Positions 12,219-15,266 of a stretch of DNA of 64,000 nt are shown piece after piece. A program made the translations under genes and the position numbers. The stretch lies in the sequence record OM386662.1; one strand, written 5' to 3'. Every line of letters begins with the position of its first letter. Positions within the stretch are counted from its first letter, which is position 1. This DNA is from Escherichia phage vB_EcoM_ESCO47. The notes below the pieces were generated by a model, which saw only the letters and a program-made list of their open reading frames with translations, did not search any database and was not told the origin of the DNA.

Positions 12219-12470
12219 ATGGGTGGATATGTAAATATCAAAACGTTCGACCATGAAGTAGCAGGTGGTACAGTAGAAGGTACCGAGGTTTCTGTTGCAT
12301 TTGAAGTTTATTCTAATGCTCATCGAATCTCAGGTGCGCACTATCAGACTTTCCCGTCTGAAGAACCAGCCTATGATACTGTGGTTGACACCGCAGATGA
12401 TTGGGCAACAGCAAATGAAGCTATGTTTACCCCAGAACCTGCACCGGTTCCTCCAGGACCCGGTGCATAA
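12219..12470 (+). CDS. soc: small outer capsid protein Soc
   Basis: 83 aa; GYVNIKTF...VSVAF..Y...H.ISGAHYQTFPSE matches T4 Soc as I recall it; TATAAATA late promoter upstream. Confidence 0.85.
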   Translation: MGGYVNIKTFDHEVAGGTVEGTEVSVAFEVYSNAHRISGAHYQTFPSEEPAYDTVVDTADDWATANEAMFTPEPAPVPPGPGA

Positions 12471-12480
12471 GTTAATTATA

Positions 12481-12506
12481 AGGAATCCTTCGGGATTCCT
12501 TTTTTC
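12481..12506 (+). terminator. rho-independent terminator after soc
   Basis: AGGAATCC-TTCG-GGATTCCT then TTTTT. Confidence 0.7.
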
Positions 12507-12515
12507 GTTTCTACA

Positions 12516-12545
12516 GTTTACATCCTTGTAAAACAGTGTTATAGT
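12516..12545 (+). promoter_or_regulatory. early promoter-like element
   Basis: -35 GTTTAC 12516-12521, -10 TATAGT 12540-12545, then AGTCCTATCAA; ATG at 12574. Confidence 0.5.
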
Positions 12546-12573
12546 AGTCCTATCAAAACAAGAGGAGAACACT

Positions 12574-12789
12574 ATGTTAAATCGTTGGATTAAACCTAAT
12601 CAAACCTTAGATGAAGTTATTGCTCGTCAGGTTATACAGAAATATGATCTTCAACTATGGTATGCTGAAGTTGTTGTGCATTCATTCATGATGCATGCTG
12701 ATGGCTCAGTCGAATTTAATGCAGAAATCCGTAATGATTTTGAAGATGAAGGCCTGCCTAAAGTTGCATTTGTAAGAGGGTTCTTATAA
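12574..12789 (+). CDS. hypothetical protein (71 aa)
   Basis: Early promoter element and RBS upstream; no motif recognised. Confidence 0.45.
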   Translation: MLNRWIKPNQTLDEVIARQVIQKYDLQLWYAEVVVHSFMMHADGSVEFNAEIRNDFEDEGLPKVAFVRGFL

Positions 12790-13130
12790 TGTTTAAGTGG
12801 TTTAAAGAATTGTTTGCTTCCACCCCAGGACAAGGAATGGTTCCTATTGATACCCATGCACCTAAAAAAGAGTATATCTACGCGGGTGATGGTATGATGG
12901 AAGAAGTGGTTTGTCCGGCTGAAAAAGCAGATAATGTTGGACAGGTGGCATCTAGTTTAAACGCGTCAGAGTTAAAGTCTCAATTAGAAAAATTAAAAGA
13001 AGAACGTTCTCAAAGGCAAACATACATAGACGCTGCGGCAATAACGACAGTAGCTTCTGTAAGCTCATGGTCTGGGGATTCCTGTTCAAGTTCTTCTGAT
13101 TGTAGTTCAAGCTCTGGGAGCTGCGACTAA
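12789..13130 (+). CDS. hypothetical protein with Ser/Cys-rich C-terminal tail
   Basis: 113 aa; C-terminus SWSGDSCSSSSDCSSSSGSCD. Confidence 0.45.
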   Translation: MFKWFKELFASTPGQGMVPIDTHAPKKEYIYAGDGMMEEVVCPAEKADNVGQVASSLNASELKSQLEKLKEERSQRQTYIDAAAITTVASVSSWSGDSCSSSSDCSSSSGSCD

Positions 13131-13309
13131 TGAATAAAATTGTCAAGTGGTTTAAAAGTTGGAACGATGGTATTGAGCATAAAGACTGGCTTGATGTTCT
13201 TGATGAGAATTTATCTAAAGAGATTCAAGAACACGAAAAGAAGCAAGTTGAAGCCGAAGGTATCCGTCTTGTGAAACTTTATATGGGCGAACCTAGGAGA
13301 ACATTATGA
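13130..13309 (+). CDS. hypothetical small protein (59 aa)
   Basis: TAATG stop/start overlap with upstream ORF; below the ORF-track length cutoff. Confidence 0.3.
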
Positions 13310-13455
13310 CGTGTACCAAAGAAGCTGAAGCCAGAGCAAAGGAAGCTTTAGATTTGCTTCTCAAAATCGGTAGTAAAATGATGGAAGAGAACGAAAAATA
13401 CATCCAAGAAAATAAAACTCCGGATGGTCCATTAGTTGGTAAGAGGAAATCATAA
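13306..13455 (+). CDS. hypothetical small protein (49 aa)
   Basis: ATGA overlap with upstream ORF and ends exactly at the next ATG; below the ORF-track cutoff. Confidence 0.3.
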
Positions 13456-13853
13456 TGAAAGCTAATTTATACCACATACATATCGACGGTCAAAAATTCC
13501 CTATTGAAGTATTGATCCCTAGTGAGTGGTCAGCGTATAACACTGAAATGTACCGGCGCATTGAAGAACAGTTTTTAACGAGTATTTCTCCTAAAGGTTA
13601 CGAAGTAGAAATCCGACTGGCCGGTGAATTCCACTATGACCCATCTTCGCCATTTGACGTAAGTGAAATCATCATTAATAAAGGATTCGTTAGTCCTGGC
13701 AATAGTTCGTCTCTTTATGGTTACATAAACGATATCATTATCTGCGGAAATAAATTCAGTATATTCCATGAAGAAGACTTGAGAGAGTTCAAAAAGTTGG
13801 TATGGAACTACTTCGGTGAAACCGGGTTTAATTTTATTAAGGCGCCTAAATGA
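13455..13853 (+). CDS. hypothetical protein (132 aa), paralog of next gene
   Basis: Shares SSPFDVSEIIINKGFVSPGN-type block with the downstream ORF. Confidence 0.5.
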   Translation: MKANLYHIHIDGQKFPIEVLIPSEWSAYNTEMYRRIEEQFLTSISPKGYEVEIRLAGEFHYDPSSPFDVSEIIINKGFVSPGNSSSLYGYINDIIICGNKFSIFHEEDLREFKKLVWNYFGETGFNFIKAPK

Positions 13854-14332
13854 TGGCTAAAATACTCGAATTAGAATTTTATATTCGTGATAACCGTGGC
13901 CAAACTCGTCCTTATGATGACACAGTTTGCGTTATCTTAGTACCATCTGACACTAGTAACAGTTCATCTGAAAGCCTCGAAAAGGCTATTAATAGTATGG
14001 CTCTTCCTGAAAACGTTATGCTTAAAATAAAGCATAATAAAAATGTTGAGATGCAACCAGGTAGCCCATTTACAGTAGTAGAAGCATTGCTGATTAAAGG
14101 TTATAGTTATCCTAACAACAGATCAGAAGGCGAGAACTCTAAAGAAATTTTCTTTACAACTCCTGATAAAGACTGTCTCGAAGGACGAAGCTATCTTGTA
14201 GGAAGCACTTCTGACGTACTCGAAATCCAACGTCAGATCTGGACGCATTTTGATATCGGACTTCGCTTTACGTTAACAGAGTCAGCCCTTCTAGAACAAT
14301 CTCTTCGTCGACGCATGTACGGTGGTTTCTAA
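13850..14332 (+). CDS. hypothetical protein (160 aa), paralog of previous gene
   Basis: GSPFTVVEALLIKGYSYPNN block similar to the upstream ORF; ATGA overlap. Confidence 0.5.
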   Translation: MMAKILELEFYIRDNRGQTRPYDDTVCVILVPSDTSNSSSESLEKAINSMALPENVMLKIKHNKNVEMQPGSPFTVVEALLIKGYSYPNNRSEGENSKEIFFTTPDKDCLEGRSYLVGSTSDVLEIQRQIWTHFDIGLRFTLTESALLEQSLRRRMYGGF

Positions 14333-14511
14333 TGGATTTAATGAGCATGTTTGATGAGCCTGAAGTTGAGGCTCCTAAAGCACAACGTGGAGAACTCGTT
14401 GACGAACTGGACATTATTATACAGCGTCACGGGTTTAATCTTCCTATAGAAGTCCTGAAAGACCTAGCGTCTTACTACGATGATCCACCTCCTTGGGCCC
14501 CTTGGTCATAA
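14332..14511 (+). CDS. hypothetical small acidic protein (59 aa)
   Basis: TAATG overlap with upstream ORF; below the ORF-track cutoff. Confidence 0.3.
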   Translation: MDLMSMFDEPEVEAPKAQRGELVDELDIIIQRHGFNLPIEVLKDLASYYDDPPPWAPWS

Positions 14512-14596
14512 CAGTTATCCCTCCTTAACGACGTGGTATCCAACTATCACGTCGCCTCTTAGAGTATACATCACTCACAATTTAGCCGAATTTTTA

Positions 14597-14626
14597 GTGT
14601 ACATCCTTAAAGAACAGTGTTACTAT
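14597..14626 (+). promoter_or_regulatory. early promoter-like element
   Basis: -35 GTGTAC 14597-14602, -10 TACTAT 14621-14626; ATG at 14655. Confidence 0.45.
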
Positions 14627-14654
14627 TCTCCTATCAACTTCAGGAGAAATCAAA

Positions 14655-15266
14655 ATGTTTTTACCTTATAATGAATGTGAAATTGAAGAAATGGTTCGCC
14701 GAGCACAAGACCCTGTGTTCCAAGAAGACCTGCAATACAAAATTGATGAAGTGTTCAGTGATTCTGAGCAGAGCACTCTTTGGCAGTGCATGGAAAATAA
14801 ACCGGATTGCATTCAACAAGAGTTGGATTCAATCATTCGTAAAAATTGGTCATCTTCTGTGCCAACGGTCCTTTATCGTGGAATTTCTAAGAAAACTCTA
14901 AAAATGTTAGATTCTGTAGGATGTGTAGGAGCTACTATCAAGTTTGACCGAGTAATGAGCTTTAGTTCAGTATTTGGTGTAGCACGTAATTTTGCTTCAC
15001 ACAATTTTTATGGAACTAAACAAATATTCTGTGTTAAGAATGCTCCATTCGCTTTTAACTTCAGAGAAACAATGCTTGACATGATTTTGGCTGCGCCATC
15101 TTGCGAGTTCAGCGGAGCTTTCCCTGAAGCGACTAGACGGTCTAATGTTCGTTTAGTATCTGATGAGTGTGAATTTATGTTCCCGATCGGGACTACACTA
15201 CGTGTAGATTCTGTTACTGAAGAAGGAACTTATCGGATATGGAATCTGTCTATTATCGGTTACTGA
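14655..15266 (+). CDS. ADP-ribosyltransferase (ModA/ModB-like)
   Basis: R-S-ExE triad: YRG, FSS and ECEF motifs in correct order; position matches the T4 modA/modB locus between 56 and dda. Confidence 0.7.
   Translation: MFLPYNECEIEEMVRRAQDPVFQEDLQYKIDEVFSDSEQSTLWQCMENKPDCIQQELDSIIRKNWSSSVPTVLYRGISKKTLKMLDSVGCVGATIKFDRVMSFSSVFGVARNFASHNFYGTKQIFCVKNAPFAFNFRETMLDMILAAPSCEFSGAFPEATRRSNVRLVSDECEFMFPIGTTLRVDSVTEEGTYRIWNLSIIGY

What the first reader, a model, noticed from the sequence alone, without database searches (positions are those of the whole stretch)
13455..14332. Tandem duplicated genes in the soc-mod interval
Adjacent 132-aa and 160-aa proteins share a conserved block (PFDVSEIIINKGFVSPGN versus PFTVVEALLIKGYSYPNN), indicating a local duplication followed by divergence.
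Basis: seen in the sequence. Interest (0 to 1): 0.3.

Follow-up and report, generated by a model that had tools for sequence, protein, structure and literature searches.

The report
Adjacent Mrh/ModA.3-family early gene pair
Two neighbouring early genes of this T4-like coliphage are real but very old relatives from the known Mrh/ModA.3 family of small host-takeover proteins; the pair arrived as a ready-made cassette and was not duplicated on the spot, so the finding is ordinary apart from one rare gene copy.

Summary
The 132-aa (A, 13455-13853) and 160-aa (B, 13850-14332) proteins are homologous: BLASTP E=5e-7, Smith-Waterman z=12.7 with 0 of 2000 shuffles reaching the score, and hhalign probability 97%. 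Both pass Pfam PF24070 (T4_MRH), which also contains T4 Mrh and T4 ModA.3.

The interpretation "local duplication followed by divergence" is only partly right. B is the ModA.3 orthologue: about 50% identical to Gaprivervirus/Dhakavirus ModA.3, with 99.7% bootstrap, against 22% to A. A belongs to a rare third clade. Its only close relative among 1.8 billion cluster representatives (47% identity) lies on a metagenomic T4-like contig that carries the same A-B tandem.

The window is Mosigvirus vB_EcoM_ESCO47. Compared with other Mosigviruses, a 1,024-bp cassette (modA.4 + A + B) replaces the resident single Mrh-clade gene exactly at gene boundaries. Most relatives carry one family gene directly upstream of modA.2, and Tequatroviruses carry two, 320 bp apart. 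Directly adjacent tandems were seen only here and on that contig.

AlphaFold models are confident, share one alpha/beta topology, and have no PDB analogue. No catalytic residues are conserved. The likely function is inferred only from T4 Mrh genetics: early, non-enzymatic proteins that bind and modulate host transcription or heat-shock machinery. This is a known family, and interest is low.

The parts
13455..13853 (+). Gene A, 132 aa: a divergent, C-terminally short member of the Mrh/ModA.3 family (PF24070), belonging to a rare third clade.
   Evidence: Pfam 2.4e-17. The exact sequence occurs only in phage vB_EcoM_ESCO47. The only close relative is P0003 at 47%. AF2 pLDDT 89.5, pTM 0.83. BFVD fold matches are to family members only, TM 0.59-0.84 for the nine with E<=0.001.
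13850..14332 (+). Gene B, 160 aa: the ModA.3 orthologue, sitting in the conserved slot directly upstream of modA.2.
   Evidence: Pfam 1.9e-33. 50-53% identical to VR7/Bp7 ModA.3 and 29% to T4 ModA.3. NJ bootstrap 99.7%. AF2 pLDDT 79.7.
13308..14331 (+). Imported cassette (modA.4 + A + B) that replaces the single 154-aa Mrh-clade gene of other Mosigviruses.
   Evidence: In blastn against the Mosigvirus locus L003, the flanks 13065-13307 and 14332-14505 match at 76-82%. The interior has no match and stands in place of L003 2226-2690.
13306..13455 (+). modA.4 homologue, 49 aa, with a TAATG stop/start overlap with gene A.
   Evidence: 89% aa identity to T4 ModA.4, E=2e-28. 83-87% nt identity to T4, VR7 and L009. 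phrog_2681 4e-32.
14332..14511 (+). modA.2 (Y01E) homologue, 59 aa, whose start overlaps the stop of B. It is the conserved downstream partner of the family's slot gene.
   Evidence: phrog_1647 1.3e-26. Alignment A5 shows an invariant C-terminal PPPW.PW. A family gene lies just upstream of it in 34 of 36 IMG/VR loci.
13130..13309 (+). Srh-like 59-aa gene, Mosigvirus-type; it forms the left flank of the cassette.
   Evidence: phrog_10443 9.5e-31. Weak similarity to T4 Srh, E=0.002. 76% nt identity to L003.
12574..13130 (+). mrh.2 (71 aa) and mrh.1/DUF7206 (113 aa) homologues, the first genes of the same overlapping early operon.
   Evidence: phrog_1873 1.9e-31; PF23836 5.8e-27. Successive ORFs overlap stop to start.
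12480..12545 (+). Terminator hairpin after soc (12480-12501), followed by an early-promoter-like site (TTTACA-17-TATAGT with upstream TG, 12517-12545). This is the probable start of the transcription unit that contains A and B.
   Evidence: Consensus scan and sequence. It occupies the position of the T4 early promoter Pe15.0 (PMC6024815). It is one copy of the 64-nt repeat D1.
14596..14659 (+). Second copy of the 64-nt promoter/RBS repeat, immediately upstream of mod. It marks the downstream end of the unit.
   Evidence: Direct repeat D1, 70% identity to 12515-12578; sequence.

Best explanation
A and B are two anciently diverged paralogues of the T4 Mrh/ModA.3 family (Pfam PF24070). This family of small proteins (about 130-170 aa) was found here only in T4-like phages. 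B is the ModA.3 orthologue and occupies the conserved slot directly upstream of modA.2. A belongs to a rare third clade and lacks the C-terminal helix that B has. The pair was not made in this genome. A pre-existing cassette (modA.4-A-B) was recombined into a Mosigvirus backbone, where it replaced the resident single Mrh-clade gene at gene boundaries. Both genes lie in a tightly overlapping, presumably translationally coupled unit (mrh.2 to modA.2) that begins at an early-promoter-like site just after the soc terminator. They are therefore most likely made in the first minutes of infection. The mechanism is inferred, not shown. Each protein folds into a compact alpha/beta domain (beta-beta-alpha-beta-alpha-beta-alpha). 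The family-wide conserved positions are a Pro, aromatic residues and Gly, with no conserved catalytic residues. This suggests a non-enzymatic, possibly oligomeric, binder that modulates host transcription or heat-shock (sigma-32/chaperone) machinery, as T4 Mrh genetics suggests. The two paralogues probably act on different targets or conditions, because distinct clades are retained side by side in T4 and here. My estimates: family identity and ancient paralogy about 0.95; cassette import about 0.8; early expression about 0.7; sigma-32/transcription-related binding mechanism about 0.3.
For: Homology of A and B. T4 Mrh and T4 ModA.3 both belong to PF24070 (1e-41 and 2.8e-38), and the T4 gene order is. 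Clade structure: BLAST matrix and NJ bootstraps (A+A' 100%; B+VR7/Bp7 99.7%; T4 Mrh + Mosigvirus 100%). The same tandem occurs on metagenomic contigs L009/L010. Cassette boundaries against Mosigvirus. Copy-number survey: 28 loci with a single copy, 6 T4-type loci with two copies 320 bp apart, and no adjacent tandem among 36 IMG/VR loci; only two family genes in the whole 64-kb window. Operon architecture: overlapping stop/start codons; terminator plus promoter-like site. In T4 the corresponding genes lie downstream of early promoter Pe15.0 (PMC6024815). Structure: confident models with the same order of secondary-structure elements. Fold matches are only to T4-like phage family members, with none in the PDB. 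Conserved columns are P, W, G and F, plus one near-invariant Asp. Function lead: T4 mrh and srh affect late transcription at 42 C and in rpoH mutants (PMC6070864). T4 Mrh purifies as a megadalton assembly (PMC8076793).
Against: No experiment exists on A, B or T4 ModA.3, and a literature search for modA.3 found nothing relevant. The sigma-32 link rests on T4 Mrh genetics alone, and A and B are only about 20-25% identical to T4 Mrh. The deep placement of A in the tree is unresolved (4-13% bootstrap), so the data cannot separate an ancient duplication from a later juxtaposition of diverged alleles. The promoter and terminator calls are consensus matches only; the promoter count in the region does not exceed the shuffles (15 found against 14.7 expected). 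The AF2 alignments were shallow (18 sequences, about 7 clusters at 70% identity).
Confidence: 0.72

Rival explanations
1. One reading: a recent local tandem duplication of one gene in this phage lineage, followed by rapid divergence of one copy.
For: The genes are directly adjacent, on the same strand, with overlapping stop and start codons. They are significantly similar.
Against: B is 50% identical to ModA.3 of other genera but 22% to A. B clusters with them at 99.7% bootstrap. The tandem already exists on a contig whose copies are only 46% and 40% identical to A and B. No DNA-level repeat links the two genes. The whole segment is foreign to the Mosigvirus backbone.
Confidence: 0.04
2. The pair never arose by duplication within one genome. 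The slot upstream of modA.2 holds diverged 'alleles' of one gene in different T4-like genera. Recombination between two co-infecting phages placed a foreign slot allele (A-type) next to the resident ModA.3-type allele, which would make the two genes pseudo-paralogues.
For: Different clades fill the same slot in different genera: the Mrh clade in Mosigvirus, the ModA.3 clade in T4/VR7, and another clade in Jiaodavirus/EcS1. The best hits of win_A outside its own clade are single-copy slot proteins of Klebsiella-phage/EcS1 type, at 27-41% identity. Highly conserved short neighbours could serve as recombination anchors: modA.4 has 83-87% nt identity across genera, and modA.2 is also conserved. 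Promoter-terminator cassettes that drive modular shuffling are documented in T4-like phages (PMC2839356, PMC4122927).
Against: L009_A shows no such preference; its best hit outside its own clade is win_B. The deep nodes are unresolved. No donor lineage is known that carries A as its single slot gene.
Confidence: 0.3
3. Rival on function: the family has nothing specific to do with sigma-32. A and B are counter-defence or other host-takeover binders, diversifying in an arms race, which would explain the clade turnover and copy-number changes.
For: The genes lie in a dispensable, hyperplastic early region (PMC6070864). The family diverges extremely fast (20-30% identity between genera) while its neighbour modA.4 stays at 89%. 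Clades are swapped and RB69 carries a split copy. The fold has no known analogue.
Against: No hit in PADLOC or NCBIfam, although those libraries do not cover anti-defence proteins. The only genetic phenotype in the family, that of T4 mrh, concerns late transcription in rpoH mutants.
Confidence: 0.3
4. One of the two copies, most likely the short and divergent A, is a decaying, non-functional remnant.
For: A lacks the C-terminal helix present in B, and its N-terminal 28 residues fall outside the Pfam match. Decay does occur in this family: the RB69 copy is split into two ORFs.
Against: A is an intact ORF with a Shine-Dalgarno-like GAGGAA upstream and a coupled start. Its length and 60 of about 132 residues are conserved in P0003 at 46-47% identity. 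AF2 gives its most confident model for A (pLDDT 89.5).
Confidence: 0.04

Closest known systems
T4 ModA.3 (18.3-kDa protein between modA.4 and modA.2) and its orthologues in VR7, Bp7 and IME08
   Same: B shares the family (PF24070), the length, and the conserved C-terminal helix and tail. It occupies the same position directly upstream of modA.2 and downstream of modA.4. Identity is 50-53% to VR7/Bp7 and 29% to T4, and B falls in the same NJ clade.
   Different: In this phage an extra paralogue (A) is wedged between modA.4 and B. The function of ModA.3 is unknown, and no literature on it was found.
T4 Mrh ('modifier of rpoH'; Frazier & Mosig 1990, cited in PMC6070864 and PMC8076793)
   Same: Same Pfam family and signature motif. 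It is a small acidic early protein in the soc-mod region, and T4 likewise carries it alongside ModA.3 as a second family copy.
   Different: Neither A nor B belongs to the Mrh clade proper (T4 Mrh plus the 154-aa Mosigvirus proteins, 100% bootstrap). BLAST scores of A to T4 Mrh are only 24-29 bits. In T4, mrh lies upstream of srh and modA.4, 320 bp from modA.3, and is not adjacent to it.
Single-copy slot proteins of Jiaodavirus (Klebsiella phage Mineola), Kagamiyamavirus (EcS1) and metagenomic P0004
   Same: These are the best non-self matches of win_A, at 27-41% identity over 60-75% of its length. They belong to the same family and lie between a modA.4-like gene and modA.2.
   Different: They are the only family copy in their genomes, they are longer (151-169 aa, with a C-terminal extension), and they do not group robustly with A.
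Modular shuffling in hyperplastic regions of T4-like phages through promoter-early/stem-loop (PeSL) cassettes (PMC2839356, PMC4122927)
   Same: The mrh.2 to modA.2 unit is bracketed by a terminator hairpin plus early-promoter-like element and by a 70%-identical 64-nt promoter/RBS repeat. The gene content inside varies between close relatives.
   Different: The actual replacement junctions (13307/13308 and 14331/14332) lie at gene boundaries inside the unit, next to conserved small genes, and not at the PeSL-like elements.

Membership tests
Pfam PF24070 T4_MRH (Mrh/ModA.3 family; phrog_1234) | Match to the family HMM above the curated gathering score (24.4 bits) | tested here: met
   A scores 63.6 bits (2.4e-17) and B 115.7 bits (1.9e-33). 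phrog_1234 gives 3e-15 and 1.3e-35. T4 Mrh and T4 ModA.3 score 142.6 and 131.4 bits.
Pfam PF24070 T4_MRH (Mrh/ModA.3 family; phrog_1234) | Signature residues: the SPF motif before helix 2 followed by G(Y/F), and the Trp of the (I/V)W..F helix | tested here: met
   P66 and W117 (A numbering) are invariant in 14 diverse members. G77, G98 and G124 are invariant and F67, F88 and F120 nearly invariant in the 18-sequence alignment.
Pfam PF24070 T4_MRH (Mrh/ModA.3 family; phrog_1234) | Shared predicted fold (beta-beta-alpha-beta-alpha-beta-alpha) | tested here: met
   The A and B models show the same order of elements. Model A matches BFVD models of family members from Klebsiella, Salmonella, Citrobacter, Yersinia and Escherichia (ModA.3) phages at TMq 0.73-0.84, E 3e-10 to 4e-6. 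Model B was searched only against the PDB.
Pfam PF24070 T4_MRH (Mrh/ModA.3 family; phrog_1234) | Genomic context: the early soc-to-mod region of a T4-like phage, next to modA.2/modA.4/srh-type genes | tested here: met
   The same context is seen in 10 annotated or metagenomic loci and 34 IMG/VR loci.
Pfam PF24070 T4_MRH (Mrh/ModA.3 family; phrog_1234) | Functional phenotype of the founding member: blocks T4 late gene expression in rpoH mutants or at 42 C | not testable with these tools
   This is known only for T4 mrh, from genetics (PMC6070864 and PMC8076793).
ModA.3 orthologous group | Closest similarity and tree placement with ModA.3 of other genera, and position immediately upstream of modA.2 | tested here: met
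   Met for B: 159-169 bits to VR7/Bp7-type ModA.3 and 67 bits to T4 ModA.3, against 29 bits to T4 Mrh; bootstraps of 99.7/85/84.7%; stop overlaps the modA.2 start. Not met for A: 20-27 bits to ModA.3 proteins, and A falls outside the clade.
Mrh proper (T4 mrh orthologues, including the 154-aa Mosigvirus proteins) | Clustering with T4 Mrh and the Mosigvirus Mrh-clade proteins | tested here: not met
   The T4 Mrh + VIPECOMC06 clade has 100% bootstrap and excludes A and B. The grouping of A with that clade has 4% support. BLAST scores are 24-39 bits.

The most novel reading that the evidence does not exclude
A is a neo-functionalised 'minimal' Mrh-family protein. It would either form a hetero-oligomer with B (and perhaps with the conserved, translationally coupled ModA.2, which carries an invariant PPPW.PW tail) or target a different host factor. 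Under this reading the tandem is a two-component host-takeover or counter-defence module, and the fold is new to structural biology.
Probability: 0.12. Interest if true: 0.45.

Novelty: new member of a known kind. Interest (0 to 1): 0.15.

Why it matters
This matters mainly for annotation and evolution. It shows that 'Mrh' and 'ModA.3' are one family with at least three or four deep clades. These clades replace one another in a fixed slot of the T4-like early region, and occasionally two co-occur. It also documents a clean cassette swap at gene boundaries in a therapeutic-candidate coliphage (ESCO47). The family has a confident predicted fold with no solved analogue and only one old genetic phenotype, so any functional study of Mrh should include ModA.3 and the A clade. 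Nothing here changes current understanding of T4 biology.

Tried and rejected
- Word-indexed protein searches with A and with B each returned only the query itself. An exhaustive phmmer search with A returned only 3 relatives.
- Pattern scans for A-clade genes in IMG/VR and in JGI metagenomes found nothing.
- Alignments A1 and A2 were too diverse for the search for related loci, so modA.2 was used as the anchor instead.
- PDB sequence searches with A, B and T4 Mrh gave only noise, E>=0.12. The 3.3-A Mrh cryo-EM structure mentioned as 'data not shown' in PMC8076793 did not turn up in those searches.
- Foldseek against the PDB: best E 1.4 for A and 0.24 for B, with TM<0.3, so those hits were rejected.
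- PADLOC and NCBIfam: no hits.
- Rfam on the whole window: nothing.
- Literature: no relevant paper on modA.3; no follow-up Mrh structure paper; the Miller 2003 T4 genome review is not held.
- The 136-aa ORF upstream of the family gene in phage Moon was considered as a possible second copy and rejected: no HMM hit, 16 bits by BLAST.
- A recent duplication was rejected on the grounds given under the rival explanations.

Full report
**What is there.** The finding's coordinates cover exactly two + strand ORFs: A (13455-13853, 132 aa) and B (13850-14332, 160 aa). They are joined by an ATGA stop/start overlap. Both sit in a run of seven ORFs from 12574 to 14511 in which every stop codon overlaps or abuts the next start. 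The run lies between soc (12219-12470; PF16855, 3.2e-23) and a Mod ADP-ribosyltransferase gene (14655-15266; phrog_832, 3.3e-39). Srd, Dda.1 and Dda follow. Exact protein matches identify the window as Escherichia phage vB_EcoM_ESCO47. This is a Mosigvirus from horse dung, accession OM386662 (PMC10269720). It is about 91% identical in nucleotides to RB69-type phages over the first 25 kb of the window.

**Is the similarity real?** Yes.
- BLASTP of A against B gives E=5e-7, 22% identity over 98 residues.
- The Smith-Waterman score is 88 against 28.1 +/- 4.7 for 2000 shuffles of B (z=12.7), and no shuffle reaches it.
- A profile of the A clade aligned to a profile of the ModA.3 clade gives hhalign probability 97.4%, E=8.9e-12.
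- Both proteins pass the gathering threshold of one Pfam family, PF24070 'T4 MRH-like' (63.6 and 115.7 bits, cut-off 24.4). Both also match phrog_1234.
The Pro of 'SPF' and a Trp in the last shared helix are invariant across 14 diverse members.
- AlphaFold2 models are confident: A has pLDDT 89.5 and pTM 0.83; B has 79.7 and 0.69. Both show the same order of elements, beta-beta-alpha-beta-alpha-beta-alpha. B has an extra C-terminal helix and a disordered acidic loop.
- Model A matches BFVD models of family members at TMq 0.73-0.84, including a T4-type ModA.3.

**What the two genes are.** T4 itself has two members of this family, mrh and modA.3 (1e-41 and 2.8e-38 against PF24070). In T4 they are separated by srh and modA.4.
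- B is the ModA.3 orthologue. It is 50-53% identical to ModA.3 of VR7/Bp7-type phages and 29% to T4 ModA.3. It lies, like them, directly upstream of modA.2.
- In an NJ tree with 300 bootstraps, B groups with VR7/Bp7 at 99.7%. Adding the metagenomic B' gives 85%, and adding T4 ModA.3 gives 84.7%.
- T4 Mrh groups at 100% with the 154-aa protein that other Mosigviruses carry.
- A belongs to neither clade. It forms a 100%-supported pair with one metagenomic protein, P0003. Its deeper position is unresolved (4-13% support).
- A is rare. An exhaustive phmmer search of 1.84 billion cluster representatives found only P0003 (47%) and two weak hits at 35% and 27%. Scans of IMG/VR and JGI metagenomes found no A-type gene.

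**Where the pair came from.** P0003 is encoded on a Logan metagenome contig, L009, with a second fragment, L010. The gene order there is the same: soc, mrh.2, mrh.1, a 64-aa gene, modA.4, A' (133 aa), B' (145 aa), modA.2, and two mod genes. That contig is at best about 70% identical in DNA to any cultured phage. A/A' and B/B' are 46% and 40% identical. The tandem is therefore much older than ESCO47.

Against a typical Mosigvirus (vB_VIPECOMC06, L003), the window matches at 76-82% up to 13307 (end of the srh-like gene) and again from 14332 (start of modA.2). The 1,024 bp in between (modA.4 + A + B) stand in place of the single 465-bp Mrh-clade gene. This is a cassette replacement with junctions at gene boundaries. 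The modA.4 part is strikingly conserved: 89% aa identity to T4 and 83-87% nt identity to T4, VR7 and L009. A and B, in contrast, have almost no DNA-level match anywhere.

The data cannot decide how the original pair arose. It could be a true ancient duplication, or two diverged 'alleles' of the slot gene could have been placed side by side. I rate the second possibility at about 0.3.

**Copy number in relatives.** I built a family HMM and scanned all ORFs of the window and of every fetched locus.
- The window has exactly two family genes.
- VR7, S16, EcS1, Moon, Mineola, VIPECOMC06 and the P0004 contig each have one, always just upstream of modA.2.
- RB69 has one, split into two overlapping-frame ORFs.
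- Of 36 IMG/VR loci anchored on modA.2, 28 have one copy, 6 have the T4 arrangement (two copies 320 bp apart), and 2 have none detected.
- Directly adjacent tandems occur only in the window and in L009/L010.

**Expression context.** A strong hairpin with a T-run follows soc (12480-12501). It is followed by TTTACA-17-TATAGT with an upstream TG (12517-12545). This is the position of the T4 early promoter Pe15.0, whose downstream genes include mrh and srh (PMC6024815). A 64-nt segment covering this promoter, the RBS and the ATG is repeated at 70% identity just upstream of mod (14596-14659). This resembles the promoter-terminator cassettes (PeSLs) reported to drive modular shuffling in T4-like phages (PMC2839356, PMC4122927). 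These are consensus-level inferences only. Promoter-like sites are not enriched over shuffles in this region.

**How it probably works.** Shown:
- The proteins are small (15.4 and 18.3 kDa) and acidic (pI 5.3).
- They are predicted to fold into a compact alpha/beta domain.
- That fold has no analogue among solved structures (best Foldseek E 1.4 and 0.24), and PDB sequence searches found no credible match.
- The conserved columns are Pro, Gly and aromatic residues plus one near-invariant Asp, which is not a catalytic constellation.

Known from the literature, for T4 Mrh only:
- Recombinant Mrh behaves as a megadalton assembly (PMC8076793).

Inferred: A and B are early, dispensable, non-enzymatic binders that tune host transcription or heat-shock machinery. 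Keeping two deep clades side by side, as T4 also does, suggests non-redundant targets. I give this specific mechanism about 0.3. A counter-defence or other takeover role is about equally likely. Nothing here discriminates between the two, and PADLOC and NCBIfam gave no hits.

**Verdict.** The genes are real paralogues, but the paralogy is ancient, is already captured by a Pfam family, and is mirrored by T4's own mrh/modA.3 pair. It was brought into this Mosigvirus as a cassette. The only mildly new elements are the rare A clade and the directly adjacent arrangement. Interest is low.

Noticed in passing
L002 (RB69, NC_004928) 13795-14275; annotated RB69p023 and RB69p022: The RB69 Mrh-clade gene is split into two overlapping-frame ORFs of 69 and 61 aa. 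Each scores 119 bits against one half of the intact 154-aa protein of another Mosigvirus. This is an apparent frameshift pseudogene or a sequencing error in the reference genome.
   Followed up: partly
Many phage records hit by B, e.g. H98, H101, H106, P0024, P0046, P0100: ModA.3 orthologues are widely annotated as 'molybdenum ABC transporter, periplasmic molybdenum-binding protein ModA'. This looks like a propagated error from the gene-name collision with bacterial modA. These are 156-160-aa PF24070 proteins.
   Followed up: partly
window 13306-13455 (modA.4 homologue): The 49-aa ModA.4 is 89% identical to T4 ModA.4 and 83-87% identical in DNA to T4, VR7 and L009, while its neighbours A and B are only 20-30% identical to their T4 counterparts. 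Either the small protein is under unusually strong constraint, or the segment acts as a recombination anchor for cassette exchange.
   Followed up: partly
window 14332-14511 (modA.2) and loci L001-L047: A PF24070 gene lies just upstream of modA.2 (Pfam Y01E) in 34 of 36 IMG/VR loci and in all annotated loci examined. In at least 17 of the IMG/VR loci, the Mrh-family reading frame runs right up to the start of the modA.2 match, so its stop codon would overlap the modA.2 start. ModA.2 ends in an invariant PPPW(A/S)PW motif. This looks like a conserved, translationally coupled gene pair and a possible protein complex.
   Followed up: partly
window 12515-12578 and 14596-14659: A 64-nt direct repeat (70% identity) covers an early-promoter-like element, the RBS and the ATG of mrh.2 and of mod. 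The first copy follows a strong terminator hairpin (12480-12501). It resembles the PeSL promoter-terminator cassettes described for T4-like hyperplastic regions.
   Followed up: partly
window 14655-15266: This phage has a single Mod ADP-ribosyltransferase gene (203 aa), which aligns from the start of RB69 modA. RB69, T4, VR7 and L009 have two (modB + modA). A 54-aa modA.4-like gene (phrog_5790), present between modA.2 and mod in the Mosigvirus VIPECOMC06, is also absent here.
   Followed up: partly
PMC10269720 (description of ESCO47); 'phages' collection: The source paper's table lists ESCO47 as a Mosigvirus, but one sentence of the text calls it 'Dhakavirus ESCO47'. No match above 99% identity to the first 25 kb of the window appeared in the phage collection searched, so the ESCO47 record seems not to be in it, although ESCO10 from the same study is.
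   Followed up: no
L009 (Logan SRR23924977 contig, 11.9 kb) and L010 (SRR23924981): The only other carrier of the A-B tandem is a T4-like contig that is at most about 70% identical in DNA to any phage in the collection. It probably represents an uncultured genus-level lineage of Tevenvirinae.
   Followed up: partly
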